64,000 nt of DNA from Longimicrobiales bacterium (GTDB lineage Bacteria; Gemmatimonadota; Gemmatimonadetes; Longimicrobiales; Gaopeijiaceae): NCBI GenBank assembly GCA_965116905.1, contig OZ220732.1, positions 4,000,001 through 4,064,000 on the forward strand. Direction: 5' to 3'. The translations under genes were made by a program, and so were the position numbers. This document shows positions 40,196 to 56,008 of the stretch, piece by piece. The notes under the pieces were generated by a model. It worked only from the letters and a program-made list of their open reading frames with translations, did no database searches and had not been told where the DNA came from. The first letter of the stretch is position 1. Every line of letters begins with the position of its first letter.

Positions 40196-40224
40196 TTGCC
40201 TACCAGCAAGCGGACGTGTATGAT
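40196..40224 (+). promoter_or_regulatory. sigma70-like promoter of the RiPP precursor gene
   Basis: TTGCCT (40196-40201), N17, TATGAT (40219-40224), 50 bp upstream of the ATG; RBS AAGGGAGG. Confidence 0.65.
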
Positions 40225-40274
40225 TGTCTGAGAGTGTTGTCCTGTGTCGAAGTTCAGAACTAAGGGAGGAAGCT

Positions 40275-40526
40275 ATGAGAAGCGGCGACGAAATGTTGCA
40301 GCAAATCGTGGAGAAGTCCGCGCTGGACACGGAGTTTCGGCAACGGCTTCTTACAGATCCAAAGACCGCGATCAGTGGCGAGCTGGGCATTACGATCCCC
40401 GATTCGATGAACATCAGGGTCCATGAGAGCGACATGCAGACGGTGCATCTTGCGCTGCCGCCGGATCCGAACATCACCGAGGAGCAGCTCGAAGCCATCT
40501 CGGCCGGCCTCTGCTGCTGCTGGTAG
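40275..40526 (+). CDS. srpE: NHLP (nitrile-hydratase-like leader) proteusin precursor, core LCCCW
   Basis: Leader IVEKSALDTEFRQRLLTDPK...IRVHE...VHLALPP and double-Gly-type motif ITEEQLEAISAG, then core LCCCW. The symbol is the name recalled for the sponge srp homolog. Confidence 0.93.
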   Translation: MRSGDEMLQQIVEKSALDTEFRQRLLTDPKTAISGELGITIPDSMNIRVHESDMQTVHLALPPDPNITEEQLEAISAGLCCCW

Positions 40527-40667: not shown

Positions 40668-41924
40668 GTGACGGGCCGGTTATGGCGAATCGGGTGGCGC
40701 AACCTCGGCCGTAACCGGAAGCGAACAGTTCTCACCGCGCTCGGCCTCGCGGTCGGCTACTTTTCCGTGGTGTTCATGGTCGGCTGGGCCGAGGGGGTCT
40801 CGACGGGACTCGTCGAGAACGCCACGTCGCTGGTCAGTGGGCAGATCGAGATCCACGACGCCGACTACCGGCCCGAGCGCAGCCTTTACGAGACCATCGG
40901 CGGACGCGAGGGTGCCGACGTGGCGGACCTCCTGCGCACCATCGAGGCCGATCCCTCGGTCGTGGCCGCCGCCCCGCGCGTGTACGCGAGCGGGCTCGTG
41001 AGTTCCGGCGAGGCGACATCGGCCGGCACTCTGCTCGGCGTCGACCCCGAGCGCGAGCTGGCGCTGACACGTTTTCTGGATCCCCTGGCAGCGGGCCGCC
41101 TGCCTGCCACCGGCCAACACGAAGCCGTTGTGGGAGACGAGATGGCGCGGCAGCTCGAGCTGAGCATCGGGGACGAACTCGTCGTCGTCGCCTCGGCGGC
41201 GGACGGCTCGATGGGCAACGACCTGTACACGGTCACCGGCATCTTCCGGACCGGCCTGCTCGAGTTCGATGCCGGCACCATGGTCATTCCGGTCGCAGAC
41301 CTGCAGACGCTCGTGGTCCTCGATCCGGATCGGGTCCACGAAATCGCAGTCAGCACCGACGATCCGTCGCAAGCCGACCTGACCGCGACCCGCCTCGCAT
41401 CCACCCTTGGAGCCCCCGAGCGGGCGATGTCGGTCGCGCCGTGGACCGAGCTCAATCCGGTGCTTGCCCAGTATGTCGCGCTCGCGGATGCGATGTACTG
41501 GATCTTCATCGTCCTCATCTTTTCAGTCGCCAGCTTCGGCATCGCCAACACGACGCTGATGGCCACCTTCGAACGCCGCCGCGAGTTCGCCGTCATGCTG
41601 GCGATGGGTGCATCGCCGCGGTCCGTGGTGGGCACGGTGCTGTCCGAGGCGGTCGCGACCGGCGTCATCGGGCTGGGCCTCGGGACCGCCGTCACGGCGC
41701 CGCTGTTGATCTGGTTCTCCACGGCGCCGCCCGACATCGGATGGCTCTTCGCAAACCTCACCGTAGAGGGCGTCCTGCTGACGCCGAGTCTCCGGGTGGG
41801 GGCCAACGTACCGGCATGGACCTGGGCGACAATCGGCCTCATCGTCACGGCACTCGTCTCCGCCCTCTACCCGGCAATCCGTGCCGCGCGGGTGCCGCCT
41901 GCCGACACTCTCTCGGGCCTGTAG
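40668..41924 (+). CDS. ABC transporter permease, FtsX/MacB/LolE-like
   Basis: WRNLGRNRKRT, periplasmic domain, NT.LMA.FERRREF..M.A.G, LYPAIRAA. Confidence 0.9.
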   Translation: MTGRLWRIGWRNLGRNRKRTVLTALGLAVGYFSVVFMVGWAEGVSTGLVENATSLVSGQIEIHDADYRPERSLYETIGGREGADVADLLRTIEADPSVVAAAPRVYASGLVSSGEATSAGTLLGVDPERELALTRFLDPLAAGRLPATGQHEAVVGDEMARQLELSIGDELVVVASAADGSMGNDLYTVTGIFRTGLLEFDAGTMVIPVADLQTLVVLDPDRVHEIAVSTDDPSQADLTATRLASTLGAPERAMSVAPWTELNPVLAQYVALADAMYWIFIVLIFSVASFGIANTTLMATFERRREFAVMLAMGASPRSVVGTVLSEAVATGVIGLGLGTAVTAPLLIWFSTAPPDIGWLFANLTVEGVLLTPSLRVGANVPAWTWATIGLIVTALVSALYPAIRAARVPPADTLSGL

Positions 41925-41926
41925 CC

Positions 41927-43204
41927 GTGCTCCTGCGCGTCCTGGTCCGGCTCGCCCTCAGGAACCTGCGCCGTCATCTGCGTCGCACGGTGCTGACTGC
42001 CTCGGCGATGATGGTCGGCGGCGCATTCCTGGTCTGGTCGATGACGATCGATGACGGCAGCCACGAACAGTGGGTCGATTCCGGTGTGCGCATGGGGAGC
42101 GGACACGTGACCATCGAGCGGCCCGAGTACCGGCTGCGCCGCCAGATCGACGACCGGCTGCCGACGGACGTCAGCCGCGCCGCGGAGCAGGCACTGGCCT
42201 CTCCCGAGGTCGCGCGGCACGTCGTGACCGTGTCCGCCAAACTCGGTATCAACGGCCTGGCGAGTTCGGCGGCCGGTGCCCGCCCGGCGGAGATCGTGGG
42301 GGTCGATCCCGTCGCCGAAGCGGCCTTCGGCACAATCGACGATGCGGTGATCGAAGGGCGCTACCTCGAGCCCGATGATCGGCTGGCGGCCTATGTCGGC
42401 GCCGATCTGGCCCGCAGCCTTGGACTCGAGATCGGATCGCGCTTCGTCGTGCAGGCGCAGGGCACCGATGGCGAGATTGCGGGGCAGCTGCTCTACGTCA
42501 TAGGGATCTTCCGCAGTCGCGTGCCCGCCATCGACCAGGCGACGATTCACGTCACGCTCGCGACAGCCGGCGAGTGGCTCGGTTCCGGTAGCGACGTGAC
42601 CAACGTCGCGGTCGTGCTGCAAGGCAGCGGCAGGACCCGGTGGGTCTCCGACCGCCTGGCGCGGGCGCTGGCGGAGCCGGTGGAACGCGGCGAGGCACGC
42701 GTCGTAGAGTGGCGCGAGGCGAACCCTGTCCTGGCGGCAGGGGTCGCGATCGACGAATTCGGCAACTACGTGATTCAGGGGTTCCTGTTCGTCATCATCG
42801 CGTTCGCGATCGTCAACACGGTGCTGATGTCGGTGATGCATCGCCAGCGCGAGTTCGGCGTGCTTCAGGCGCAGGGGCTGACGCCGGGTCAGACGGGCAC
42901 CGTCGTGCTCATCGAAGGCCTCACGCTATCCGCGGTCAGCGGGCTCGTCGGCGTCGGCCTGGGACTCCTGGGCACCTGGTATTTCTTCGGCGACGGTTTC
43001 GACTCGTCGGTCTTCATGCGGGGTATCGACGAGTTGACATTCTCGGGTGCCGCCGTTGATCCCATCATCGTGCCAATCTTCGGGGTACGACGCATTGTCC
43101 AGGTTGTCGCGTTCATTCTCGGCATTGGCATTCTCGCCTCGGTCTATCCCGCGCTGCGCGCCGCCCGGGTCGACGTTACCGAGGCGATGAAGTTCGATCG
43201 GTAG
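41927..43204 (+). CDS. ABC transporter permease, FtsX/MacB/LolE-like (second paralog)
   Basis: ALRNLRRHLRRT, NTVLMSVMHRQREFG, YPALRAA; GTG 2 nt after the previous stop. Confidence 0.9.
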   Translation: MLLRVLVRLALRNLRRHLRRTVLTASAMMVGGAFLVWSMTIDDGSHEQWVDSGVRMGSGHVTIERPEYRLRRQIDDRLPTDVSRAAEQALASPEVARHVVTVSAKLGINGLASSAAGARPAEIVGVDPVAEAAFGTIDDAVIEGRYLEPDDRLAAYVGADLARSLGLEIGSRFVVQAQGTDGEIAGQLLYVIGIFRSRVPAIDQATIHVTLATAGEWLGSGSDVTNVAVVLQGSGRTRWVSDRLARALAEPVERGEARVVEWREANPVLAAGVAIDEFGNYVIQGFLFVIIAFAIVNTVLMSVMHRQREFGVLQAQGLTPGQTGTVVLIEGLTLSAVSGLVGVGLGLLGTWYFFGDGFDSSVFMRGIDELTFSGAAVDPIIVPIFGVRRIVQVVAFILGIGILASVYPALRAARVDVTEAMKFDR

Positions 43205-43210
43205 GAGGTC

Positions 43211-43912
43211 ATGGCAATGAGTAAAACGGCAGCCGCCCGGACCGACGGCGTCTGGAAGGTCTTCCAGCAGGAAGCTGAATCCGTCGAGGCGGTCCGCGAC
43301 GTCAGCCTGACCATAGAGCGTGGCGAGTTCACCGCGCTTGCGGGACCGTCGGGCTCCGGCAAGACGACGCTGCTGAATCTGATCGGTGGCCTGACCAGCC
43401 CCACAAAGGGACGGGTCTGGGTGGCCGGGCACGAGGTGAGCCGCATGTCGACCCGGGATTTGGCGCGGCTACGGCTCGAGGAGGTTGGCTTCGTCTTTCA
43501 GGCCTATAACCTGCTCCCCGTGCTCACGGCATTGGAGAACGCGGAATTCCCGATGCTCCTCCAGGGCGTGCCCGTGAAGGAGCGTCAGGCGCGGGTCCGC
43601 GAACTCTTTGCGCGAACGGGCATGGAAGGGCTCGAAGACCGGCGCCCGGGCAAGCTGTCAGGCGGCCAGCAGCAGCGCGTCGCCGTCGTCCGTGCGGTGG
43701 CTGGCCGTCCGGCCCTCGTGCTTGCGGACGAGCCGACGGCGAACCTCGACTCGGTCACCAGCGAAGCGCTCCTCGATGTCATGGGCGAGCTGAATCGCGA
43801 CCTCGGAGTGACCTTCGTCTTCGCCACCCACGACAGCCGCGTCATGGAGCGGTGCCGGCGTCTGGTCCGCATGGTCGACGGCGCTGTGCGTGACGACGAG
43901 CCCGGATCCTAG
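43211..43912 (+). CDS. ABC ATP-binding protein, LolD/MacB-like
   Basis: GPSGSGKT, GFVFQAYNL, LSGGQQQR, LADEPTANLD, ATHD. Confidence 0.95.
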   Translation: MAMSKTAAARTDGVWKVFQQEAESVEAVRDVSLTIERGEFTALAGPSGSGKTTLLNLIGGLTSPTKGRVWVAGHEVSRMSTRDLARLRLEEVGFVFQAYNLLPVLTALENAEFPMLLQGVPVKERQARVRELFARTGMEGLEDRRPGKLSGGQQQRVAVVRAVAGRPALVLADEPTANLDSVTSEALLDVMGELNRDLGVTFVFATHDSRVMERCRRLVRMVDGAVRDDEPGS

Positions 43913-43933: not shown

Positions 43934-45226
43934 CTAGCAGCCTAGACCCTGGGACACCTGGGCATAGCTGGTAAGCGGGACCGCGCACATCCGATGCCAG
44001 TCCTCCTGGTCGATGACGGGTTGGTTCAACAGTTCAATCATCTCGTCGAAGTCATGGAGCGCGGAGCACCCCACCACCGCCGGGTCCGCTGCCTGCCGGT
44101 GTCGTGGCCAGGCGCGGTCACGAGCATGGCGCCAGAAGCCGCTGTTGTACCTGGAGCCGCACGAGTAGTGCCAGCCGACGAACAGGCCGTAGCGGATCAT
44201 GTTGTTGATGAGGAACCGATTGACCACGGGCGCGTCGCGCTCGAGATGCTCCGGCGGACGGCTGAGGCGCGTCCGGAGCACCATCCCGATCTGCAATTGG
44301 GCGGATACGATCGCCGTTGCCTCGAGCGGCTCCATGAAGGCCGCTGCGTTGCCGATGCGGGCCACGGCACCGTCGTAGATCCGACGGTGGACGAAGTTGG
44401 GAAACCCGATGACGGCGCGCTGCTCAAACTCGGACACGCCGTCGGCCTCGAGGAGCCTGTCAAAATCCGATTCGACGTCGACCAGGCTCGACAGGTTGCC
44501 GTTGAAGACGTACCCGTAGGATGTGTGGGCAGTGAGCGGAATCACGAATACCCAGCCGTGTCGACGCGCAACCGCGCGCGTGTACGTGTGCTGGAGCACC
44601 GGTCCATCCCGCTCTTCGCTGAAGACCGGCGGACAGCGGCGTATGACGGCCGTATCGGTGGGGATGAAGGGAAGGTCGATGTGCTGGTCGGGACGGAGCT
44701 CCCTGGGGAACCCGCGCGCATCGAACACGAGGTCGTACCGTTCCGGCGGCCGGCCCTCGAATTCCACGCGAGCGCCGCCACTCACCCTGGTGATATCGAG
44801 TACCCTCGCATCGATGTGCCGCGCGCGCGTGCCTTCGTGGAGCAGGTCCGCCATCAGGTCGGCGGACAGGTGGTAGGCGTAGGACACCTGCTGCGGCGTG
44901 AAGTAGTGGGTGAAGTCCCGATCGCGTCGGCCCCATCCCTCGAACGCGACACCGTACTTGCGAGTCCCACTCAGGCGCTGCTGTACGGTGTCGTGCGGCA
45001 GACTCGTCAGCTGTTGCAGCTCCCGAACCAGGCTCGGCCAGCTGCCTTCACCGACTCCGATCACCGGGATCCGCGAGTCGTATATGTGGTGCAGCTCGTG
45101 ATCGCTGTCGGGATGAAGACGCGTCACGCTGGCGGCCGCCAGGCACCCTGCGGTCCCTCGCCCCACAACCGCGATCTTCCGTAGGGATTCGCTCTTCCGT
45201 AAGGACTCGGTGCCTGGGTGTATCAC
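43934..45226 (-). CDS. srpI: Flavin-dependent tryptophan halogenase family (putative peptidyl-Trp brominase)
   Basis: VVGRGTAG (GxGxxG), IGVGEGS, TRKYGV (catalytic Lys position), FDARGF, GWVFVIP (WxWxIP variant), IGNAAAFMEPLEAT; GTG start after GGAGG. The symbol is recalled from the srp cluster. Confidence 0.88.
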   Translation of the reverse strand: MIHPGTESLRKSESLRKIAVVGRGTAGCLAAASVTRLHPDSDHELHHIYDSRIPVIGVGEGSWPSLVRELQQLTSLPHDTVQQRLSGTRKYGVAFEGWGRRDRDFTHYFTPQQVSYAYHLSADLMADLLHEGTRARHIDARVLDITRVSGGARVEFEGRPPERYDLVFDARGFPRELRPDQHIDLPFIPTDTAVIRRCPPVFSEERDGPVLQHTYTRAVARRHGWVFVIPLTAHTSYGYVFNGNLSSLVDVESDFDRLLEADGVSEFEQRAVIGFPNFVHRRIYDGAVARIGNAAAFMEPLEATAIVSAQLQIGMVLRTRLSRPPEHLERDAPVVNRFLINNMIRYGLFVGWHYSCGSRYNSGFWRHARDRAWPRHRQAADPAVVGCSALHDFDEMIELLNQPVIDQEDWHRMCAVPLTSYAQVSQGLGC

Positions 45227-45376: not shown

Positions 45377-45432
45377 ACCCGGCGAGACCGGTCCGTCCCT
45401 GCTTGATCGTGATGAGGAGTCTGTGTGGAGCC

Positions 45433-45984
45433 GTGTTCAATAACCCGCTTGGTTCGTTTCACAATACCGTTGCCGAAGCAAAGGAAGAACGCGAGCAACT
45501 CGACCGTCTGCTGACGGTTTCCACACCGCGAGAGCGCCTGCTTGTCACAGTCATCGCTCTTGTGTTGGTCATCTTCATCACCTGGCTCTTTTTCGGCAGC
45601 GTAGCCCGTAGCCTTGCGATCGACGGCGTACTCGAGGAGTCCGGCCAAAACCTGTCCGAAGCCGCCCAGTCAGTGCAGGCGCTGGTCTGGATCGAGAACG
45701 ACGTTCTGCCCGAGGTCAGGGCCGGGATGCCGGCGTCGATCGAACTGGGCGGGGCGGATGGAGACGCGGGCACGATTGGCGGAGAGATTACGATGATTTC
45801 CGCTGTCCGCCTGCCCGAGCTTCCAGCGGCCTTCGAGTCCGCAGTGCCGGCCTCCGTCCATCGCGTCCAGATCGCGCTCGACGAAAGCCCCGACTCTTCC
45901 TTCGTTGCGGGCCGGGAATGCCGGATCGTCATCGAAATCGGCACCCAGGCTCCGATCGCACTCCTGCGACTGGGGCAACCATAG
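45433..45984 (+). CDS. Short NHLM-system secretion (HlyD-like) accessory protein
   Basis: EQLDRLLTVSTPRERL, one TM ending WLFFGSV...DGVL, and a C-terminal beta domain ending QAPIALL. At 183 aa it lacks the long coiled coil. Confidence 0.72.
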   Translation: MFNNPLGSFHNTVAEAKEEREQLDRLLTVSTPRERLLVTVIALVLVIFITWLFFGSVARSLAIDGVLEESGQNLSEAAQSVQALVWIENDVLPEVRAGMPASIELGGADGDAGTIGGEITMISAVRLPELPAAFESAVPASVHRVQIALDESPDSSFVAGRECRIVIEIGTQAPIALLRLGQP

Positions 45985-45985
45985 C

Positions 45986-48199
45986 ATGCCGTCGATCGCC
46001 TTCAGAGGAGTTGGCGACAAGAAAGCCGCCGGGTTCAAGGCAAAGCACAGGATCACCACGCCCATTGTGCTGCAGGTGCATGCGTCGGAGTGCGGTGCCG
46101 CCTGCCTCGGCAGCATCCTCGGCTACTTCGGACGCTGGGTTCCGCTGACCGAGCTGCGGGAAAGATGCGAAGTGAGTCGAGACGGAAGCAGTGCGGCGAG
46201 CATCGTGCGCGCCGCCAGACATTATGGTCTCGAATCCAGCGGACTCAGTTTGCGCGCCGATCAACTGAAAAAGCTGCCGTTGCCGCTGATCGTGTTCTGG
46301 CAATTCAGTCATTTCCTCATCGTCGAGGGGTTCGACGGCCGCAACTTCTATCTCAATGATCCGTCCACGGGACGGCGCAAGCTTTCCGCCGAGGAGTTCA
46401 CCCGGGGCTACAGTGGCATTGCGCTCCGATTCAAGCCGGGCCCCGACTTCAAACCCGGCGGTGAACGGCCCGGACTGGTCAGACAACTGCACGCCCTGCT
46501 CGCCGGATCATGGGGCGTGCTCACCTGGGTGATCGCGTGCGGCCTCATGTTGACGCTGCTGGCCCTCATTGTCCCCGCATCTCTGGGCGCATTCGTGGAC
46601 GATGTGCTGGAAGACCGGGGGCCCTGGGGCGGCATCGTGACGGCACTGCTCGGCGGCGGCGTCCTCGTCTATATCCTGTCCCTGCTCAAGCACCGGTTCC
46701 TGAAGCGACTCGCAGTCCGGATTTCGGTGACCGGCTACAGTCGTGGCTTGTCGCGGCTGCTGCGGTTGCCGGTGGAGTTCTTCGAACACCGGCTCGTGGG
46801 CGATCTGACGGATCGAGTCTCGTCCATCGACAGGATCGCGAGGAATCTGACGGAGCAGTTTCTTGTGCTCGTTATCGACATGGGAATGAGCGCCGTGCTG
46901 CTTGCTGCCATGTTGGTCTACGACGTCCGGCTCACACTGGTCGTGCTCGTTCTGGCCGTTATGCATGGCGTGCTGGCGCACTTTCTGAACGGCGTCAGAG
47001 CCGTTCGAAGCCAGGCGATGAGACGCGAACAGGGACTGCTGATCGGCATCGGCATGCAGATGCTGAGCCATGCCGACAACCTGCGCATGACGGGATCGGA
47101 CGACCATTTCTTTTCGCGGTGGACCGGTCATCAGGCGCGCGAACTGCATGCGCGCCAGCGCTACTCGGAGCTGGGCTCCGTCAATGCCGCGCTTCCGGGT
47201 CTGATCGTCGCCCTTCGAGGCGCGGCGATCCTGGGCATCGGCGGAAGTCTGGTCCTGGCCGGGGAAATGACCCTGGGGGCGCTGGTCGCGTTCTACATCC
47301 TGAGCGAAATGTTCCTGGCGCCGGTCGGGCGATTCCTGGAGTTCGCCGAGAAGCGCCAGGCCCTCGAAACCGATCTGCAGCGACTCGAAGACATCTCCAG
47401 GACCGCCGAGGACCCCGCCCTCATCCGCCAAAGTCAGCACTCCGAGTCGATTCCGACTTTCAAGGGCCAGCTTCAGCTCGCCGGCCGGCTTGAGCTGCGA
47501 GACGTCACCTTCGGGTTCAACAAGAGCCGGCCGGCTCTCATCAAGGACTTCAACCTCCTGATCAGGCCGGGGCAGCGGGTTGCCGTGGTCGGTCCGAGCG
47601 GTTCCGGCAAGTCGACCCTCGCGCGTCTGATTGCCGGTGTCTACCAGCCCTGGTCGGGCGACATCCTGTTCGATGGCTATCCGCGGGATGAGATTCCCGA
47701 TGGGGTGCTGCGGCAGTCCATCTCCATGGTGGATCAGGAGGTGGTGCTCTTTTCCGCGTCCGTGCGCGACAACATCACCCTGTGGAACCCCGCCGTTCCG
47801 GACGAGGCCATCTTCGCGGCGGCGCGCGACGCCCGGATCCATGACGAAATCCTGCTTCGGCCGGATGGGTACGCCACGCGGGTCGATGAGGGCGGCGTGA
47901 ATTTCAGCGGCGGCCAGCGGCAGCGGCTGGAGATCGCCCGCGGGCTGGTGGGCGATCCCACGCTCCTCATTCTGGATGAGGCGACCAGCGCCCTCGATGC
48001 CGCGACGGAGGAATACGTCGATGATGCCCTGCGCCGTCGGGGTGTCACCTGCCTGATCGTGGCGCACCGGCTGAGCACCGTGCGGGACAGCGACGAGATC
48101 ATCGTGCTCGACAAGGGCGTCGAAGTGCAGCGCGGGACGCACGACGAGCTGATGGGGGATCGGGACGGCACCTACTACAAGCTGGTCAGATCCGGCTGA
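45986..48199 (+). CDS. NHLM-type peptidase-containing ABC transporter (C39 + TMD + NBD)
   Basis: LQVHASECGAACL (Cys), WQFSHF (His), LNDP (Asp); GPSGSGKST, FSGGQRQR, ILDEATS. Confidence 0.95.
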   Translation: MPSIAFRGVGDKKAAGFKAKHRITTPIVLQVHASECGAACLGSILGYFGRWVPLTELRERCEVSRDGSSAASIVRAARHYGLESSGLSLRADQLKKLPLPLIVFWQFSHFLIVEGFDGRNFYLNDPSTGRRKLSAEEFTRGYSGIALRFKPGPDFKPGGERPGLVRQLHALLAGSWGVLTWVIACGLMLTLLALIVPASLGAFVDDVLEDRGPWGGIVTALLGGGVLVYILSLLKHRFLKRLAVRISVTGYSRGLSRLLRLPVEFFEHRLVGDLTDRVSSIDRIARNLTEQFLVLVIDMGMSAVLLAAMLVYDVRLTLVVLVLAVMHGVLAHFLNGVRAVRSQAMRREQGLLIGIGMQMLSHADNLRMTGSDDHFFSRWTGHQARELHARQRYSELGSVNAALPGLIVALRGAAILGIGGSLVLAGEMTLGALVAFYILSEMFLAPVGRFLEFAEKRQALETDLQRLEDISRTAEDPALIRQSQHSESIPTFKGQLQLAGRLELRDVTFGFNKSRPALIKDFNLLIRPGQRVAVVGPSGSGKSTLARLIAGVYQPWSGDILFDGYPRDEIPDGVLRQSISMVDQEVVLFSASVRDNITLWNPAVPDEAIFAAARDARIHDEILLRPDGYATRVDEGGVNFSGGQRQRLEIARGLVGDPTLLILDEATSALDAATEEYVDDALRRRGVTCLIVAHRLSTVRDSDEIIVLDKGVEVQRGTHDELMGDRDGTYYKLVRSG

Positions 48200-51138
48200 T
48201 GCGGGACACGAGGCCGGAGCACACGTCCATTGCGGAACTCGCCACCAGCGCGGGCGAGTCCGTGCCCTGCGCCGGCAACCTGCCCGTGAAGCTCGACGAC
48301 CCGGACTCCGTCTGGTTCATCGACGAGGGCGCCGTCAATCTGTTCCTGGTCGAATTCAGGGACGGGTTGGATCATGCGGCACCCCAGCACCTGCTCCGCC
48401 GCGAAGCGGGCTGGCTGCTGCCGGGCGTCGCACCCAACGAACCGCACGGGGCGGAAGATACCACGCTCAGCCTGGTCGCCAAGGGATCGCCGGGCACCAT
48501 TCTGAAGCGCCTGCCGGCATCCCTGCTCTCCGAGGTCGATCCGGCGGAGCTGGCGGAACAGACGGAAACCTGGCTGGCCGCGATCACGGACACCCTCTCG
48601 CGCTTTGCGAGTCACCGTCCACGGCCGACGGCGCTGGCCGAGCCCGGTCTGACACGGAGCCTCGCCCCCTGTACGCTCTCCGTACGACGAGGCGTCGTAT
48701 GGGTATCCGAACCCCCACGCGGCGCCAGCCTCTTCATGGACCTGGTCGACCAGGCGGCACTTACCGGAGGGAGCGGCCCGCACGAAGCGCTGATACCGCT
48801 GACGCGGGCAAGCTGGCTCACGCTCTCGGACGAGGTAACGCTCTCGGCCAGTTCGACCGAGACACTGGCACGGCAGGGCACCCTGCTCTCGGCGCTCGCA
48901 TCCTTTCACGCGGTCGCCTTCGCCGTGGAGCGCCTGAACCGCGTACTGGCCGTAGTCGACCACGCGAATCTCGAACGCGCGCGGACCACGAGCCGCTACG
49001 CGGCCGAGAGAACTGCGCGGCAGCGGCTTTTCAACATCTATGACCTGCCGATCGACCGGGACGCGAGTGTCGAGGACACGTCGCTGGCGGACGCGCTGCA
49101 GCCGATCGGACGCCGTGAAGGGATTGATTTCAAGATCCCCGTGCGCCCGGGATCCTCCGGTGCCCCGGTCAGCCTCGTCGACGTCCTCGTCGCTTCAGGC
49201 GTGCGCGCCCGGCGCGTGCGGTTCACGAACGAGGGCGCCTGGTGGCGGGGCGACAGCAACGCGATGCTGGCGTTCCGCGCCGAAGGCGGCCAGCCTGTGG
49301 CGCTCCTGCCGGGATGGTTCGGGCGCTACCGGGAATTCGACCCGGTCAGCAAGCGTAGTGTCCGGATGACGGCGGATCGTGCCGCCGCGCTGGCGGACGA
49401 GGCCTGGGTGTTCTACCGGCCGCTGCCCGAGGGGAACGTGAGGCCGGCGGACCTGCTGAGATTCGCGCTGCGTGGATCGGCCGCGGATCTGGCGCGGCTG
49501 GTGATGGCCGGCCTTCCGGGCGGCCTGATCAAGCTGGTGCCCGCACTCGCGCTCGGGTTCGTCGCAAACCAGACGGCGGGCGGCGGAACCGCCGGAGCGG
49601 TCTATGCCGCGGCCGTGGCGGTGGCGGGCTTCGGCGTGCTCGGCGCCCTGCTGCACCTGCTTCAATCCACGGCGATGACGCGGCTCGAGGGGCGCTCGGC
49701 TTCGCGCGTCGAAGCGGCGTTCTGGGACCGCCTCATGCGCCTTCCGCCAAGCATTCTGCACCGCCATCCGTCGGGCGATCTGGCCATGTCGGGGATGACG
49801 TTCCAGAATCTCCGCGACGGGTTGCAAGGCGTCGTTGCCGACGGCCTGCTATCGATCCTCTTTCTGCTTCCGGTTCTTGGTGTCATCTTCCTCTACGATG
49901 CCACCCTCGGGGCCATCGCCCTCGCCTTCAGCCTGGTTTCGCTCCTGATCACGGTTGTCCTCGGACTGCGCCAGGTTCCCCCCTGCGGGCGGATGATCCG
50001 CGCGGCGCGGCGCGTCTCCGGCCGGTTGTTCCAGATCGTGGGCGGCATAAGCAGACTGCGTGTGGAAAACGCGGAAGCGTCCGCTTTCGCCATGTGGGCG
50101 CGGGACTACCGGGAGCAGAAACGCGCCGAGCTCGAAATGGCCGGGCTCGAGGGACATTCGCGCGCATTCGGCGCCGCGCTCCCCTTTCTTGCCGCCGGGG
50201 TCCTGCTGGCGGTCGTGGCCGTGGGCGACAGGGACCTTCCGGTGGGCGATTTTCTCGTCGTCTACCTCGTCCTCATCGCCTTCCAGTACGCCATCGCCCG
50301 ACTCGGCGAATCCCTTGGCACGGTCGCCGCCATGCTCCCGGGGTTCGACCAGATGCGCCCGCTCCTCGCCGCGGCTCCCGAGACCGAGGCCGAAGGAGCG
50401 CCGGTCGAGTATCTGGGCGGCGACATTCTCTTCGACCGCATTTCCTTCCGGTACGATCCCGACGGGCCGCTGATCCTGGACGATGTCACGATCCGCGCCC
50501 GCCCCGGAGAATTCATCGCGATCGCGGGTGAGTCCGGCGCCGGCAAGAGCACCCTCTTCCGGCTGGCGCTCGGATTCGACCGGCCCACCGCCGGCGCGGT
50601 CTATTACGATGGACGCGACCTGAGGCACCTGAACCTGAAGCAGGTGCGCCGCAGAATCGGCGCGGTGCCGCAATCCGTCGGCCTGCATCCCCTCGATATC
50701 TGGGACAATCTCGTCGGTCACCACGATAAGGTGGCGAGTGACGAGGTATGGGCGGCGGCGCGAGTCGCCAACGTCGAAGAAGAGATCAAGAGCATGCCGA
50801 TGGGCATGATGACCATGGTCGGCACGAGCGGAAGCGTCCTGTCGGGCGGCGAGAGTCAACGTGTCACTATTGCCCGGTCGGTGATCGGCAGCCCGCAGAT
50901 CATGCTCTTCGACGAGGCCACCAACTGGCTGGACAACGAGAGCCAGGCCAATGTCATGCGGAATCTCAACGCCCTGACCTCGACCCGGGTTGTTATCGCG
51001 CACCGCTTGTCCACCCTGGAACAGGCCGATCGCATCTACGTGCTGCAGGCCGGAAAAGTCGTACAGAGCGGCTCCTTCGACGAACTCTTGGAGGGCGACG
51101 GGGTGTTCAGGGAGTTGGTGAAAAGGCAGATCGCCTAG
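48199..51138 (+). CDS. NHLM-type second ABC transporter subunit (no peptidase)
   Basis: N-terminal cNMP-binding-like segment (VWFIDEGAVNLF), SGVRARRV...WW, FYRPLP, TMD, GESGAGKST, LSGGESQR, FDEAT; coupled to the previous gene. Confidence 0.92.
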   Translation: MRDTRPEHTSIAELATSAGESVPCAGNLPVKLDDPDSVWFIDEGAVNLFLVEFRDGLDHAAPQHLLRREAGWLLPGVAPNEPHGAEDTTLSLVAKGSPGTILKRLPASLLSEVDPAELAEQTETWLAAITDTLSRFASHRPRPTALAEPGLTRSLAPCTLSVRRGVVWVSEPPRGASLFMDLVDQAALTGGSGPHEALIPLTRASWLTLSDEVTLSASSTETLARQGTLLSALASFHAVAFAVERLNRVLAVVDHANLERARTTSRYAAERTARQRLFNIYDLPIDRDASVEDTSLADALQPIGRREGIDFKIPVRPGSSGAPVSLVDVLVASGVRARRVRFTNEGAWWRGDSNAMLAFRAEGGQPVALLPGWFGRYREFDPVSKRSVRMTADRAAALADEAWVFYRPLPEGNVRPADLLRFALRGSAADLARLVMAGLPGGLIKLVPALALGFVANQTAGGGTAGAVYAAAVAVAGFGVLGALLHLLQSTAMTRLEGRSASRVEAAFWDRLMRLPPSILHRHPSGDLAMSGMTFQNLRDGLQGVVADGLLSILFLLPVLGVIFLYDATLGAIALAFSLVSLLITVVLGLRQVPPCGRMIRAARRVSGRLFQIVGGISRLRVENAEASAFAMWARDYREQKRAELEMAGLEGHSRAFGAALPFLAAGVLLAVVAVGDRDLPVGDFLVVYLVLIAFQYAIARLGESLGTVAAMLPGFDQMRPLLAAAPETEAEGAPVEYLGGDILFDRISFRYDPDGPLILDDVTIRARPGEFIAIAGESGAGKSTLFRLALGFDRPTAGAVYYDGRDLRHLNLKQVRRRIGAVPQSVGLHPLDIWDNLVGHHDKVASDEVWAAARVANVEEEIKSMPMGMMTMVGTSGSVLSGGESQRVTIARSVIGSPQIMLFDEATNWLDNESQANVMRNLNALTSTRVVIAHRLSTLEQADRIYVLQAGKVVQSGSFDELLEGDGVFRELVKRQIA

Positions 51139-51236
51139 CAGTCCGTGGATAAACCCACGCGAGCACCGAGAGCGGCGAGGCGCCGGGCCGGATGCATTCG
51201 CCGCTCGAATGCCGCGGGGGTTTGTTCACGGGCTGC
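51138..51236. repeat. ~100-bp long-hairpin / MITE-like element
   Basis: Terminal inverted repeats GCAGTCCGTGGATAAACCCACGCG and CGCGGGGGTTTGTTCACGGGCTGC (20/24 matches; three mismatches are G-U compatible); inner stem GAGCGGCGA/TCGCCGCTC. Confidence 0.7.
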
Positions 51237-51265
51237 CTGATCCGAATCCCTCTCCGGAGACATCG

Positions 51266-52564
51266 ATGAACGGATCGATTGACGCGCACACCCTCGTATC
51301 GAGAGCCGACAAGGACAGCGACTTTCGCGAACGTCTTCTCCGGCACCCCAGGGAAACCGTCGAGAAGGAATTCGGCGTGACGCTGCCGGAAGACCATGAG
51401 ATTCACGTACACGAGGAGACCTATGGCGCGACACATGTGGTGCTTCCGCCGCGGAACAGGTTCAGCGAGGCCGAGCGGGAGGCGGCCAGGACCGGCAGGG
51501 CATCGCTCGAGTATCTTCGGAGTACTCTCCACGATCCCGCACCGCCCCTTCGTTCTCCGGCACCGAAACGAGGCGAAGTCCGAAGCGGCGGGGCCGGCTC
51601 CGAGGCGCTTGCAGAGGCGGCGAGGGAAGGGATCCGCCGAGGGCTTGCCTTCCTGGAATCCACAATCGACGAGAATGGGGCTTGGCACTGCATCCGGTTC
51701 AACGTTGCCGACCCGGACATTCCCAGGCACTTCGAGAGGCCTCCTTTCGTGTCGGCTCTCTGCGCGCTCGCCCTTGAGAGATCCGATGAGCCGCGGGCCA
51801 GGGCGATATGCACGGCGACGAAGGCGTATCTCATCGACACCATCGAGTATCCCGGACTGTGGCGATACTACCGTCACCTGCCCCCGGATCTCGACAGTAC
51901 CTCGCTCTGTGCGATGGTTATCGGGACGCACCCCTGGATCTGGCTCGGACGGAATGTTCCCGGGATACTGGCGAATCGCGACGAGGAGGGCCGCTTCATG
52001 ACCTGGGTGCTGGCGGAAGACGAACCCGATGTCGTGTCGCCGTTTCGCATCGAGGCCGACCCCGTCGTCAATGCGAACGTCATCGCCTGGCTGGGCGACC
52101 GTCCGGAAACCAGGGATGCCCAGCGATGGTTGGAACACCTGGTGACCGATGGGAGCCTGGAGGGCTCGTCGAAATGGTATCCCGACACGATCTCGATCCA
52201 CTATGCGATCGCCCGCGCGACGGTTCGCGCAAAGCCCGCCCTCGAGGCGTTGCGCCCGATGCTCGCAGATCGTATCCTCGGCCTCCGTGACCGGAAGGGA
52301 GGATTCGGCAACGTTCTTCAGACCGCTCAGGCGGTGTCGGCGCTCTACAGTGTCGGAAGCCTCGGGCGCATCGACGTGAAGCGGGAGGTGGAGGGGCTGA
52401 TGAACTCGCAGCGCGGGGACGGCAGCTGGCCGGAGCTGCTCGCGTTCGGCGACCAATCGTTGAAGTGGGGTTTGGTGGGGCAGATCGGGCATGGCTCCGA
52501 GGCCGTGACCTCCGCGTTCTGTATCGAGGCCCTGGAGTGTCTCGTCGAAGGGCTTGGGGCCTGA
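51266..52564 (+). CDS. NHLP-leader domain fused to a prenyltransferase/squalene-cyclase-repeat (class II terpene cyclase-like) domain
   Basis: Residues 1-77 align with the precursor leader (DSDFRERLLRHP...EFGVTLP...IHVHEE...HVVLPP). The rest has QW-like repeats (FLESTIDENGAW, LRDRKGGFG, MNSQRGDGSW), PPDLDSTS at the DxDD position, VVNANV and GSEAVTSAFCIEAL. Confidence 0.8.
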   Translation: MNGSIDAHTLVSRADKDSDFRERLLRHPRETVEKEFGVTLPEDHEIHVHEETYGATHVVLPPRNRFSEAEREAARTGRASLEYLRSTLHDPAPPLRSPAPKRGEVRSGGAGSEALAEAAREGIRRGLAFLESTIDENGAWHCIRFNVADPDIPRHFERPPFVSALCALALERSDEPRARAICTATKAYLIDTIEYPGLWRYYRHLPPDLDSTSLCAMVIGTHPWIWLGRNVPGILANRDEEGRFMTWVLAEDEPDVVSPFRIEADPVVNANVIAWLGDRPETRDAQRWLEHLVTDGSLEGSSKWYPDTISIHYAIARATVRAKPALEALRPMLADRILGLRDRKGGFGNVLQTAQAVSALYSVGSLGRIDVKREVEGLMNSQRGDGSWPELLAFGDQSLKWGLVGQIGHGSEAVTSAFCIEALECLVEGLGA

Positions 52565-52566
52565 GC

Positions 52567-54888
52567 GTGCCCACCGATACGGCGCGCGCGGGCCCACGGC
52601 CCGGGATCCTGGCCCGGACGACTCTCGCGGACCGGGGCATCGTCAAGCTTCCCGCGCTCACCCCGCACCTTCGATTCCACGATATCGGCGAGGGGCGGGT
52701 GCTCCTCGTCTCCGAGTCGTTCAATACGCTGCTGCACGGCAAGCTGTACGGCGACTTGCTGCCGCTGCTCGACGGCCGGCACGCCGGGGACGAGATCGTC
52801 GCGGCCCTCGAGGGCGCCCACGCGCCCACCAACGTCCTGGCGGCCCTGGCCGCGTTCGCCGCCAAGGGGTACCTGGTCTCCGCCGATCACGGGATGGACC
52901 TGTGCCAGGCAGCCTACTGGTCGTCGCTCGGGGCGTCGCCACGCTGGGCCGAGGAGCGGCTGGCGCAGGCGCGCGTCACGGTCGAGGGTGACGACGGCCG
53001 GCTCGCCCGGCATCTGGAGGAGGCCGGCGCCAGCGTGGGAGGCACCGGTCCGGCGCTGACCGTCGTCGTCTGCGCCGACTATCTCGATGCGCATCTCGCC
53101 GAGGTGAATCGGCGCCAGCTCAAGGCGAGAGCGCCGTGGACCCTGGCGCGGCCGAGCGGGATGGAGCCGCTGTTCGGCCCCATCTTCCGCGCTGACGGGC
53201 GGGGGCCTTGCTGGGACTGCCTCGCATGCCGCCTGCGCAGCCACGGGGAAGTCCACGCTTTCCTGCGCAACGTCGCCGGCGAGGAAGCCGCCTTCAGGCC
53301 GTTCGCGGCCCAGCCGGCCGCGCTGGGAGCAGTGTACGGGCTGATCGCGGCGGAGATCGTCAAATGGCTGGTGCTGGATCAGGCGGCCCCGATTCACGAA
53401 CAGGCGATCGCGATGGACATCGCCACATTCACGAGTTCGCAGCACCGGGTCGTGCGCAGGCCGCAGTGTCCGGAGTGCGGCGACGAGGCCCTGCGCCGGC
53501 CGGATCGACCGCCCCTTCCGGTGTCTCTGAAGGCGAGCCCCAAGGCCCATCGCAACAGCGGCGGCGCGCGCGCCGTGCCGCCGGGAGCCACCCTGGCGAA
53601 GTACCGGCATCTGGTGAGCCCGGTCAGCGGCGTCGTCACCTGGCTGTCGCGCACCACCGATGAGACCGACTCCTGGCTGCACGTCTACTGGGCCGGGAGC
53701 AATTCCGGGATGAGAAGCCGAAGCCTGAGTTCGCTGAGGCGCAGCCTGCGCAGCAAGAGCGCCGGCAAGGGCAGCACCCGGCAGCAGTCCAGGGTCAGCG
53801 CGCTTTGCGAGGCGATCGAGCGGCATTCGGGCGCCCGCCATGGGGACGAGATCCGTGTTGCCAGGCGATTCATCGAGTTCGCCGGGCGAGAAGAGGCGAT
53901 CCACCCCAACGATGTGCAGCTGTTCAGCGAGAGTCAGCTCGACGACGCGGAGAGCATCAACGCGAAGGGCCACCCCTACAACATCGTCCCGCCACGTCTC
54001 GATCCCGACGCCGAGATCGATTGGACCCCGGTCTGGTCATTGACGCAGCGGCGGCACCGGTACCTGCCCACGTCCATCCTGTACAGCATGCTGGCCGAGG
54101 AGCGCGGCCCTGCGGACCTGATTGCCGATTCGAACGGATGCGCCGCGGGCAACACCCTTGAAGAGGCGATCCTGCAGGGTTTCTACGAACTGGCCGAGCG
54201 CGATGCGTTCGCCGTCTGGTGGTACAACCGGCTGCAAGTGCCGGCGGTCGATCTTTCCAGCTTCGACGACGAGTACCTCGAATCGGCCGCGGACTACTAC
54301 GGCCGCCATGAGCGGGACCTGTGGATGCTCGACGTCACCTCCGATATCGGCATTCCCACCTTCGTCGCGCTCTCGCGTCGGCCGAACGCCGAAACCGAGG
54401 ACATCATCTACGGCGCCGGCACCCACGCCGACCCGCGGATCGCCGCCCTGCGCGCGCTCTGTGAACTGAACCAGTGCCTCACCTGGCTGCCGCGTCCCGG
54501 GGCGGCGGACGGCCGGCCCAGGATCGACGATCCGCTGGCGCTCCGGTGGTGGAAGACCGCCCGCCTCGCCGAATGTTCCTGGCTGGCGCCGGCGCCGGAC
54601 GAGCCGCTCCGCAGGGCTTCGCAGTATCCGGTGACCGAAGCGGCGGACACGCGCGAAGATGTGGAATACTGCCGCTCGCTTGTCGAAGCCAGGGGCATGG
54701 AGTTCCTGGTGCTCGATCAGACGCGGCCGGATATCGGCATGCCCGTGGCCCGGGTCATCGTGCCGGGCATGCGCCATTTCTGGGCAAGGTTCGCGCCCGG
54801 GCGCCTGTACGACGTGCCCGTCCATCTGGGGTACCGCGAGCACCCGCTCTCCGAAACCGGCCTGAATCCCGCACCTGTGATTGCGTGA
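52567..54888 (+). CDS. srpC: Fused E1-like/YcaO cyclodehydratase (TOMM C-D fusion)
   Basis: N-terminal RRE-like region, GPCWDCL and PQCPECG zinc sites, SAGKG, CEAIER, SNGCAAGNTLEEAILQGFYELAERDA, C-terminal LNPAPVIA. The symbol is recalled from the srp cluster. Confidence 0.94.
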   Translation: MPTDTARAGPRPGILARTTLADRGIVKLPALTPHLRFHDIGEGRVLLVSESFNTLLHGKLYGDLLPLLDGRHAGDEIVAALEGAHAPTNVLAALAAFAAKGYLVSADHGMDLCQAAYWSSLGASPRWAEERLAQARVTVEGDDGRLARHLEEAGASVGGTGPALTVVVCADYLDAHLAEVNRRQLKARAPWTLARPSGMEPLFGPIFRADGRGPCWDCLACRLRSHGEVHAFLRNVAGEEAAFRPFAAQPAALGAVYGLIAAEIVKWLVLDQAAPIHEQAIAMDIATFTSSQHRVVRRPQCPECGDEALRRPDRPPLPVSLKASPKAHRNSGGARAVPPGATLAKYRHLVSPVSGVVTWLSRTTDETDSWLHVYWAGSNSGMRSRSLSSLRRSLRSKSAGKGSTRQQSRVSALCEAIERHSGARHGDEIRVARRFIEFAGREEAIHPNDVQLFSESQLDDAESINAKGHPYNIVPPRLDPDAEIDWTPVWSLTQRRHRYLPTSILYSMLAEERGPADLIADSNGCAAGNTLEEAILQGFYELAERDAFAVWWYNRLQVPAVDLSSFDDEYLESAADYYGRHERDLWMLDVTSDIGIPTFVALSRRPNAETEDIIYGAGTHADPRIAALRALCELNQCLTWLPRPGAADGRPRIDDPLALRWWKTARLAECSWLAPAPDEPLRRASQYPVTEAADTREDVEYCRSLVEARGMEFLVLDQTRPDIGMPVARVIVPGMRHFWARFAPGRLYDVPVHLGYREHPLSETGLNPAPVIA

Positions 54889-54895
54889 GGAGAAC

Positions 54896-56008
54896 ATGGA
54901 TACCGACGCGGCCGTCGCACTGACCCAGGACCGTCTCGCCGAGGAGGGCGACACGATGGGTGAGCTGCTCGGGCACTTCCGAAATCGAATCTCGCCGGTC
55001 CTGATCGGAGATCCGCAGTGGGAGCGCATACTCGAGCGCGCCGGAAAGCTCCCCATCACAATGGGCGCGCTGCCATTCGGTTTCGAACTGCCGCTGCATG
55101 CAAGCGAGCCCAGGGCGGACTTCGGCGTCTCCCTCGCGAGCGGAACGAGAACGGCGGCCTTTTTCCAAGCGCGCGCACGCACCGACGCGACGGATGAGAC
55201 CGCGAGGGTGATCACGCGGCTCTTCGGCCGGATGGAGACGGAAGACTCGCCCCTGCGTGGGATTGTCGGCCGCAAACTGATGCTGGAATACGATATCGGC
55301 TCGGCAGGAGACGGTGAGCGTTCACTTCCGGGAATGTTCCTCCGGCCCGGTGAACGCCCGATTCTCGGCGCCCGCGGCCAGGTGGATGATGTCCGTGCGG
55401 TCGCGGACGCGCTGTTCTCCTGCGCAGGCTGGGAGATGAGCGGCCCCGAGCGCGAGAACATCGAACGGGTCTACCTGGCACAGCCGGGAGACACGCGCAT
55501 GGATTCGTTCGGTGTGTTCCCGTCGCGCTCGCGGTTCATCCGCCTGGCGATCATGGGCTTCAGATCGCGGCACGCGACGTGGTGCTATCTCGAAGACGCC
55601 GGCTGGCCGGGTCATATCCCGGCTGTCGACTCCCTGATCGCGCGCTTCGACGAGCGCGCGAGCATTCGCAGGACCGGGGTGAACATCGATGTGCGGGAGG
55701 AGGGCGTCGGACCGACGCTCGGCCTCACGCTCATCGTCAAGCAACGTTATACGAAGGACTCGCGCTATTGGCTCGACGGCCTGACCGATTGGCAGCCGTT
55801 CCTGGAGGCCCTGGGCCATGAGGACCTTGTCGTTCCGGAGAAGCTCGGGGCGCTTGCCGGCTGGGTCTCGAAGCCGACAACGCTCTTTGGGAAGTCCGGG
55901 CGGTTCGTGCTGCTGCGTGGCATTCACCATATCAAGCTGGTCGTATCCGGAGACCGGCTTCGACAAGCCAAGGCCTACGTGTTCATGGTGCTTTCCGGGG
56001 CGGTGTAG
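54896..56008 (+). CDS. Hypothetical protein; candidate ABBA (PT-barrel) peptide prenyltransferase
   Basis: GAGGAG RBS directly after YcaO; five apparent beta-hairpins separated by helical segments. The CDS is secure; the function is inference. Confidence 0.6.
   Translation: MDTDAAVALTQDRLAEEGDTMGELLGHFRNRISPVLIGDPQWERILERAGKLPITMGALPFGFELPLHASEPRADFGVSLASGTRTAAFFQARARTDATDETARVITRLFGRMETEDSPLRGIVGRKLMLEYDIGSAGDGERSLPGMFLRPGERPILGARGQVDDVRAVADALFSCAGWEMSGPERENIERVYLAQPGDTRMDSFGVFPSRSRFIRLAIMGFRSRHATWCYLEDAGWPGHIPAVDSLIARFDERASIRRTGVNIDVREEGVGPTLGLTLIVKQRYTKDSRYWLDGLTDWQPFLEALGHEDLVVPEKLGALAGWVSKPTTLFGKSGRFVLLRGIHHIKLVVSGDRLRQAKAYVFMVLSGAV

What the first reader, a model, noticed from the sequence alone, without database searches (positions are those of the whole stretch)
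40275..40526. 78-aa leader for a 5-aa core (LCCCW)
Seen: a single precursor with the cleavage motif ITEEQLEAISAG followed by only Leu-Cys-Cys-Cys-Trp-stop. Every core residue except Leu has a matching enzyme in the cluster. Inference: three contiguous thiazolines plus a free N-terminal amine resemble a metal-chelating array, so the product may be a metallophore or signal rather than a bacteriocin.
Basis: partly seen in the sequence, partly recalled or inferred. Interest (0 to 1): 0.7.

Follow-up and report, generated by a model that had tools for sequence, protein, structure and literature searches.

The report
Known sponge-symbiont peptide precursor SrpE
This small gene is a close copy of SrpE, the published precursor of a five-residue brominated, thiazoline-bearing peptide from marine-sponge bacteria, so it is real but not new; two unnamed partner genes are predicted to add a ring-shaped lipid to the final product, which none of the papers read describes, and the neighbouring genes do not support the proposed metal-scavenging role.

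Summary
It is not new. It is an SrpE orthologue of the sponge-microbiome srp cluster: 63 of 78 leader residues match published SrpE and the halogenase matches SrpI at about 83% (by-eye counts). Three thiazolines and leader-dependent 6-bromination of Trp are published. The metallophore idea lacks genomic support: no metal-uptake or metal-regulator family is conserved across 80 loci, while lipid-type exporters recur. The enzyme list is also incomplete. An ABBA-prenyltransferase-fold gene, an NHLP-fused class II terpene-cyclase-fold gene and an AlkB-like gene are each present in 50 of 50 srpE genomes tested. The mature product is therefore likely a cyclised-terpene lipopeptide. The attachment site is open, because Trp-free sister cores keep the prenyltransferase-like gene. 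This scan reported the same system, and the same lipid idea, on other genomes.

The parts
40264..40269 (+). Shine-Dalgarno-like GGGAGG before the precursor
   Evidence: sequence; RBS-like motif upstream in 61 of 80 relatives
40275..40508 (+). 78-aa NHLP (proteusin) leader; enzyme-recognition motif ITEEQL at 40473-40490; double-glycine-type boundary AISAG
   Evidence: TIGR03793 69.9 bits; 8tb1 E 7.8e-11; 63/78 identical to SrpE leader by eye
40509..40526 (+). core Leu-Cys-Cys-Cys-Trp and stop
40668..43912 (+). MacB/LolCDE-like ABC cassette (two FtsX-type permeases 40668-41924 and 41927-43204, ATPase 43211-43912); likely a second exporter
   Evidence: first permease in 14 of 80 loci, never with the LolA-like/MMPL genes found at other loci
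43934..45226 (-). SrpI orthologue, flavin-dependent peptide Trp brominase; catalytic Lys84 equivalent kept
   Evidence: PF04820; about 350/423 identical to SrpI by eye; GTG start with GGAGGG upstream
45412..45984 (+). short HlyD-like accessory secretion protein (start uncertain)
   Evidence: weak TIGR03794 hit, below cut-off; in 37 of 80 loci
45986..48199 (+). C39-peptidase ABC transporter; likely removes the leader and exports
   Evidence: PF03412; TIGR03796 833 bits, just under its cut-off of 853
48199..51138 (+). second NHLP-type ABC transporter subunit
   Evidence: TIGR03797 666 bits, under its cut-off of 709
51209..52564 (+). NHLP-like N-domain fused to a class II terpene-cyclase-fold (TC-beta) domain with invariant DxD and Tyr; predicted cyclase
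   Evidence: 50 of 50 genomes
52567..54888 (+). E1-like/RRE-YcaO cyclodehydratase (SrpC-like; start uncertain)
   Evidence: PF02624, TIGR03604 269 bits over cut-off, TIGR03882
54896..56008 (+). ABBA-barrel protein with no Pfam match; predicted prenyltransferase
   Evidence: model pLDDT 90.5; top 19 VIA hits are all ABBA prenyltransferases, Z 10-16.3; 50 of 50 genomes
56033..58462 (-). AlkB-like membrane di-iron oxygenase/desaturase fused to GlnE-like domains; role unknown
   Evidence: 8f6t alkane 1-monooxygenase E 4e-51; PF00487 and PF03710; 50 of 50 genomes

Best explanation
This gene is an orthologue of SrpE, the precursor of the sponge-microbiome srp peptide, and its core is likely matured into a three-thiazoline, 6-bromotryptophan pentapeptide that is predicted to carry a cyclised isoprenoid and to act as a lipophilic exported molecule rather than a metal scavenger. 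Steps: (1) the YcaO enzyme binds the ITEEQL leader motif and cyclodehydrates Cys-Cys-Cys to thiazolines (published for SrpC/SrpE; inferred here by orthology); (2) the SrpI orthologue brominates indole C6 of the C-terminal Trp while the leader is attached (published; inferred here); (3) the ABBA-barrel protein would transfer a polyprenyl chain (fold-based inference; acceptor open: Trp indole about 50%, N-terminal amine about 35%, other 15%); (4) the NHLP-fused TC-beta protein would protonate and cyclise that chain, and the AlkB-like enzyme might oxidise it (inference); (5) the C39 transporter would cut after AISAG and export, helped by a lipid-type second exporter (inference).
For: Identity: LCCCW core, thiazolines and 6-Br-Trp described in passages of PMC10286304 and PMC10858898. 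A 252-bp gene with consensus ITEEQL is described in bioRxiv 2023.06.09.544420. By-eye identity to SrpE leader 63/78 and to SrpI about 83%. Lipid step: ABBA fold, best Z 16.3, rmsd 4.5 over 301 residues to indole prenyltransferase MpnD, next non-ABBA Z 6.0. Cyclase fold, best Foldseek hits drimenol synthase (E 1e-11) and MstE (E 2e-9). Its DLD and WYP motifs align with drimenol synthase and are invariant in 49 sequences. Each gene is in 50 of 50 srpE genomes. Among 30 relatives, close prenyltransferase-like copies (65-92%) occur in exactly the 7 genomes with a close precursor, and cyclase copies in 6 of those 7 and in none of the other 23. Precedent: NctPC, an ABBA prenyltransferase fused to an MstE-like cyclase acting on Trp (review PMC13290415, passages). 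Lipid-type exporters in 54 of 80 loci. Two polyprenyl synthases in the genome.
Against: No activity was tested; fold identities are 6-12% (ABBA) and 15-21% (cyclase), and a shared fold shows no function. A profile search of the ABBA-like family found nothing in the PDB by sequence. Sister clusters with Trp-free cores (LCCCG x3, LSCCG, and CxC-type cores) keep a 34-40% homologue of the ABBA gene, which argues against Trp as the acceptor and could mean a non-prenylating role. In the passages I read, the papers that reconstituted SrpC and SrpI report no prenylated product. The 50 genomes were picked from 80 loci for long contigs and include kin. The primary JACS 2021 paper and Hubrich 2024 could not be read.
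Confidence: 0.55

Rival explanations
1. The end product is simply Leu-(thiazoline)3-6-Br-Trp. The ABBA-fold and cyclase-fold proteins are scaffolds or make a separate small terpenoid, and the peptide acts as a community signal or defence compound.
For: Only SrpC and SrpI steps appear in the passages read. The ABBA homologue persists beside Trp-free cores. The precursor gene is disproportionately transcribed across phyla.
Against: Both genes track the precursor genome by genome. The cyclase carries a leader-like domain and invariant catalytic-type residues. ABBA paralogues sit directly beside NHLP precursors in all six extra stretches fetched, which were chosen from ABBA-homologue hits.
Confidence: 0.25
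2. Metallophore: the thiazoline nitrogens and a free amine chelate Cu, Zn, Fe or Ni for uptake or detoxification.
For: Thiazoline arrays bind metals in pyochelin, yersiniabactin and patellamides (recalled, not tested). No dehydrogenase was found, so the more basic thiazolines likely remain.
Against: All 161 ORF families recurring within 10 kb of the precursor in 80 loci were labelled or Pfam-scanned: a TonB-dependent receptor family in 2 loci, CobW families in 3 and 2, a CobN chelatase in 2, and no Fur/CsoR-type or metal-ABC family. The 327 single-locus ORFs were not scanned. No metal-uptake gene among the 27 window proteins scanned. Bromination and likely lipidation are not explained by this role. 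'Metal' occurs 0 times in the main text of two srp papers.
Confidence: 0.12
3. Membrane-active antimicrobial or anti-eukaryote toxin in the classical linear azoline-peptide sense (compatible with lipidation).
For: Dedicated C39 export system; proteusins include cytotoxins (PMC11832590 passages).
Against: The same core occurs across many co-resident phyla, which is not the diversification expected of a strain-versus-strain weapon (inference; the sample was biased to near matches).
Confidence: 0.15

Closest known systems
srp BGC (sponge-derived RiPP proteusins): SrpE/SrpC/SrpI; Nguyen et al. JACS 2021 (not read); PMC10286304, PMC10858898; bioRxiv 2023.06.09.544420
   Same: Identical LCCCW core, 78-aa leader 63/78 identical, 252-bp gene, ITEEQL motif, SrpI orthologue at about 83% with Lys84, YcaO, two ABC transporters
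   Different: Only sequence drift. This lineage carries a MacB/LolCDE-like cassette between precursor and halogenase where other loci have LolA-like/MMPL genes, and the halogenase has a short N-terminal duplication.
Terpene-cyclised RiPPs: NctPC/ChrPC (Hubrich et al. 2024, known to me only through review PMC13290415)
   Same: ABBA-barrel prenyltransferase fold plus an MstE-like class II cyclase fold beside a RiPP precursor with Trp
   Different: Here the two are separate genes, the cyclase is fused to a leader-like domain, the core is a tri-thiazoline bromo-Trp pentapeptide, and no activity is shown. I could not compare sequences with NctPC.
Linear N-prenylated cyanobactins (aeruginosamide/AgeMTPT type; recalled, AgeMTPT seen only as a reference title)
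   Same: Very short azoline-containing linear core with an ABBA-type prenyltransferase
   Different: Different leader and proteases; the fold here is nearer to indole prenyltransferases (Z 14-16) than to PatF/PagF (Z 11-12).
RiPP and NRPS metallophores (methanobactin, pyochelin, yersiniabactin; recalled)
   Same: Cys-derived heterocycles in a short peptide
   Different: No conserved TonB receptor, periplasmic binder or metal regulator at srp loci; no MbnB-type enzyme in this cluster.

Membership tests
srp BGC / SrpE | NHLP (proteusin) leader | tested here: met
   TIGR03793 69.9 bits, cut-off 50.9
srp BGC / SrpE | LCCCW core after AISAG | tested here: met
srp BGC / SrpE | (L/I)TEEQL recognition motif | tested here: met
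   ITEEQL at residues 67-72, the consensus reported in the bioRxiv paper
srp BGC / SrpE | SrpI-type halogenase with catalytic Lys84 | tested here: met
   about 350/423 identical by eye, Lys in register
srp BGC / SrpE | azoline-forming YcaO (SrpC) | tested here: met
   TIGR03604 and TIGR03882 over cut-off; SrpC sequence itself not available for comparison
srp BGC / SrpE | host is a marine-sponge symbiont | tested here: inconclusive
   nearest loci are Longimicrobiales/Gemmatimonadota MAGs and other lineages, one titled Spongia_Bin9; the window's own habitat is not known
srp BGC / SrpE | thiazoline formation and bromination by these very enzymes | not testable with these tools
   needs expression and mass spectrometry
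terpene-cyclised RiPPs (NctPC-like) | ABBA prenyltransferase fold in the cluster | tested here: met
terpene-cyclised RiPPs (NctPC-like) | class II cyclase fold with acidic catalytic motif | tested here: met
   mapping onto AsDMS D331/D333/Y427 (PMC12365925) is my inference from a 10-residue numbering offset
terpene-cyclised RiPPs (NctPC-like) | isoprenoid attached to and cyclised on the peptide | not testable with these tools
   biochemistry needed
terpene-cyclised RiPPs (NctPC-like) | Trp is the prenyl acceptor | tested here: inconclusive
   fold nearest to indole prenyltransferases, but homologues accompany Trp-free cores
metallophore clusters | conserved linked uptake receptor or metal regulator | tested here: not met
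   best candidates in 2-3 of 80 loci; unlinked uptake genes not excluded
metallophore clusters | metal binding by the mature product | not testable with these tools
   titration needed

The most novel reading that the evidence does not exclude
The widespread, highly transcribed srp cluster of sponge symbionts makes a hybrid of a tri-thiazoline bromo-tryptophan pentapeptide and a polycyclic terpene. A stand-alone ABBA prenyltransferase and a cyclase that carries its own leader-like domain would build it, and the prenyl may sit on the N-terminal Leu amine rather than on Trp, across a wider family of tiny Cys-rich NHLP cores.
Probability: 0.45. Interest if true: 0.6.

Novelty: already known. Interest (0 to 1): 0.22.

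Why it matters
The flagged gene itself is a rediscovery. What remains open is the product and role of one of the most widespread and most transcribed biosynthetic clusters in sponge microbiomes (bioRxiv 2023.06.09.544420: 'ecological role remains elusive'). If the two unnamed genes prenylate and cyclise the peptide, the mass to look for in sponge extracts differs from the published intermediate, and a five-gene co-expression makes this directly testable.

Tried and rejected
Primary srp paper (JACS 2021) and Hubrich 2024 were not held; either paper or its supplement may already annotate the prenyltransferase- and cyclase-like genes. Literature searches for that link found no such statement in the listings or passages seen: 30 of 70 listed; 12 of 13; 1; 2; the 'prenyl' hit checked in PMC10286304 is a reference title; PMC11791876 not opened; 1, not opened. 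The metallophore search (20 of 22 listed) showed no srp metal study. The supplement search of PMC10858898 gave nothing on other srp genes (figures not held). Pfam and NCBIfam gave nothing for 54881-56008, nor did a PDB sequence profile. The deep profile search did not run. Further precursors in the genome: none found. The upstream S9 peptidase as leader protease was rejected as a core part: 4 of 80 loci. Two 'recurrent' ORF families proved to be opposite-strand shadows of the cyclase and YcaO genes. The gene in the cyclase's position in a Trp-free sister cluster is an FAD-binding oxidoreductase unrelated to it. The promoter scan found a weak 9/12 sigma-70-like site at 40196-40224 and no terminator; I draw nothing from it. 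No expression data or complex prediction was run.

Full report
Observation. Window 40275-40526 (+) translates to 83 residues: a 78-residue leader ending ITEEQLEAISAG, then LCCCW and a stop. The leader matches the NHLP model TIGR03793 above its cut-off and the proteusin leader structure 8tb1. It is a real, selected gene: over 80 related loci, codon differences are 1903 synonymous to 641 non-synonymous, and the core codons vary only synonymously. All 80 loci (best 80 of 300) and all 120 listed protein hits (best of 688) end in LCCCW; both sets were ranked by likeness to the query, so this overstates invariance. The genome holds no second precursor; the only other hit is the leader-like N-terminus of the gene at 51209.

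What it is. A full-text search for LCCCW returned 5 papers, 3 of them on the srp cluster of sponge microbiomes. Passages of PMC10286304 and PMC10858898 state that SrpC converts the three Cys of the SrpE core to thiazolines and that SrpI brominates the C-terminal Trp at C6, needing the leader and its LxxxxL motif. From bioRxiv 2023.06.09.544420 I read part 1 of 5 and section 10: a single 252-bp precursor gene, consensus ITEEQL, strongly transcribed across phyla, role unknown. Part 2 of the SI of PMC10286304 prints the SrpE leader and SrpI. By eye, the window's leader is identical at 63 of 78 positions, and its halogenase at about 350 of 423, with the catalytic Lys84 in register once a short N-terminal duplication is skipped. 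[quoted passage not shown] Passages of PMC9426513 and PMC12615548 agree on the srp assignment. Passages of PMC12426817 and bioRxiv 2026.08.03.742642 added nothing on the product. The primary JACS 2021 paper was not held. The closest loci (94-98%) are mostly Longimicrobiales/Gemmatimonadota MAGs; others span Alpha- and Gammaproteobacteria, Acidobacteriota, Chloroflexota and Binatia. In the window's own genus the close precursor is patchy, 7 of 18 genomes drawn.

Cluster anatomy. Precursor; MacB/LolCDE-like ABC cassette; halogenase (minus strand); short HlyD-like gene; C39-peptidase ABC transporter and partner; NHLP-fused gene 51209-52564; E1-YcaO; unannotated gene 54896-56008; AlkB-like/GlnE-like fusion (minus strand). 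No azoline dehydrogenase was found in the cluster, and TIGR03605 gave no hit in the genome, so the rings likely stay thiazolines.

Gene 54896-56008 resembles prenyltransferase clusters by language-model features (0.90, a lead only). Its model (pLDDT 90.5) matches ABBA prenyltransferases: the 19 best VIA hits are all of that class, top Z 16.3, rmsd 4.5 over 301 residues, next class Z 6.0. The C-domain of 51209-52564 (model pLDDT 78.9) matches class II terpene cyclases, best drimenol synthase and MstE. Its DLD and WYP motifs align with drimenol synthase and are invariant in 49 sequences. They likely correspond to the catalytic D331/D333/Y427 of AsDMS (PMC12365925 passages); that mapping is my inference. 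In 50 genomes chosen from the 80 loci for long contigs, each of the ABBA gene, cyclase domain, halogenase and AlkB-like domain was found in 50 of 50; one ABBA copy is in two pieces and three halogenase matches are partial. Control: among 30 relatives, close ABBA copies occur in exactly the 7 genomes with a close precursor, and the cyclase in 6 of those 7 and none of the other 23. Kin are not independent. A precedent exists: NctPC couples an ABBA prenyltransferase and an MstE-like cyclase to put a cyclised C20 unit on Trp (review PMC13290415, passages; original not held). Leader-dependent ABBA prenylation of a Trp is also published for a lanthipeptide (PMC12715784, part 1 of 3).

Against a simple Trp-prenylation reading. 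Six stretches around distant ABBA homologues were fetched. Five have Trp-free cores (LCCCG three times, LSCCG, and CxC-type cores beside an MbnB-family enzyme) and one has WCCCGT; none showed a halogenase or cyclase-domain hit in the stretch. The homologues are 33-40% identical (about 52% for the WCCCGT one) and share invariant Arg/Lys/His/Tyr positions. So the acceptor need not be Trp. A non-prenylating role cannot be excluded.

Metallophore test. From 1453 codon-bias-filtered ORFs within 10 kb of the 80 precursors, 161 families recur in two or more loci. Ten are cluster or window genes; the other 151 were Pfam-scanned. Metal-related families are rare: TonB receptor in 2 loci, CobW in 3 and 2, CobN in 2; no Fur/CsoR-type or metal-ABC family. 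The 327 single-locus ORFs were not scanned. What recurs instead is lipid-type export: LolA-like in 33, MMPL/sterol-sensing in 25, MacB/LolCDE-like in 14 of 80 loci, the last never together with the first two, 54 loci in all. This favours a lipophilic exported product. It does not exclude that thiazolines bind metal in vitro.

Verdict. The gene is an already known SrpE orthologue (about 0.97). The best mechanism for the product is tri-thiazoline plus 6-Br-Trp (published for the orthologues) plus a predicted cyclised isoprenoid (0.55, untested). Earlier AI notes of this scan reached the same SrpE call on at least eight other genomes, and three also proposed the prenyltransferase/cyclase pair; I had reached that reading before the look-up, and they are not independent evidence. 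Interest 0.22.

Noticed in passing
L081:7005-8364, L082:6789-8214, L083:217-1652, L084:1-1471: Sister clusters with LCCCG or LSCCG cores keep the ABBA-fold gene and (where the stretch reaches) YcaO, transporters and the AlkB-like gene; in three, an FAD-binding oxidoreductase sits upstream of YcaO where the window has the cyclase, and no halogenase hit was seen.
   Followed up: partly
L085:3424-15622: Three NHLP precursors ending GECIC, VCQC and LCACM with two ABBA-fold genes, an MbnB/TglH/ChrH-family enzyme with a DUF2063 partner, a methyltransferase and a flavin monooxygenase: an unusual enzyme mix, and a better metal-binding candidate than the LCCCW cluster.
   Followed up: partly
L086:8054-13901: NHLP precursor with core WCCCGT beside an ABBA-fold gene (about 52%), two methyltransferases and an MMPL transporter.
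   Followed up: no
window 56033-58462 (-): AlkB-like di-iron oxygenase fused to GlnE-like nucleotidyltransferase domains; found in 50 of 50 srpE genomes and within 10 kb in 41 of 80 loci; role unknown.
   Followed up: partly
window 40668-43912 versus L018-L080: MacB/LolCDE-like cassette and LolA-like/MMPL genes are mutually exclusive at srp loci (14 against 33 and 25 loci, no overlap), suggesting interchangeable second exporters; the MacB type is in the Gemmatimonadota loci.
   Followed up: partly
window 45412-45984 (+): HlyD-like gene of only about 190 aa, far shorter than the 421-position NHLP HlyD model, yet conserved in 37 of 80 loci.
   Followed up: no
window about 45175-45210 (-): Short tandem duplication near the N-terminus of the halogenase relative to published SrpI.
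   Followed up: no
L001/L003: One MAG carries two near-identical srpE loci on different contigs (both 98% to the window); duplication or binning artefact not resolved.
   Followed up: no
window 61360-63666 (-): 768-aa ankyrin-repeat protein, a type often seen in sponge symbionts (recalled).
   Followed up: no
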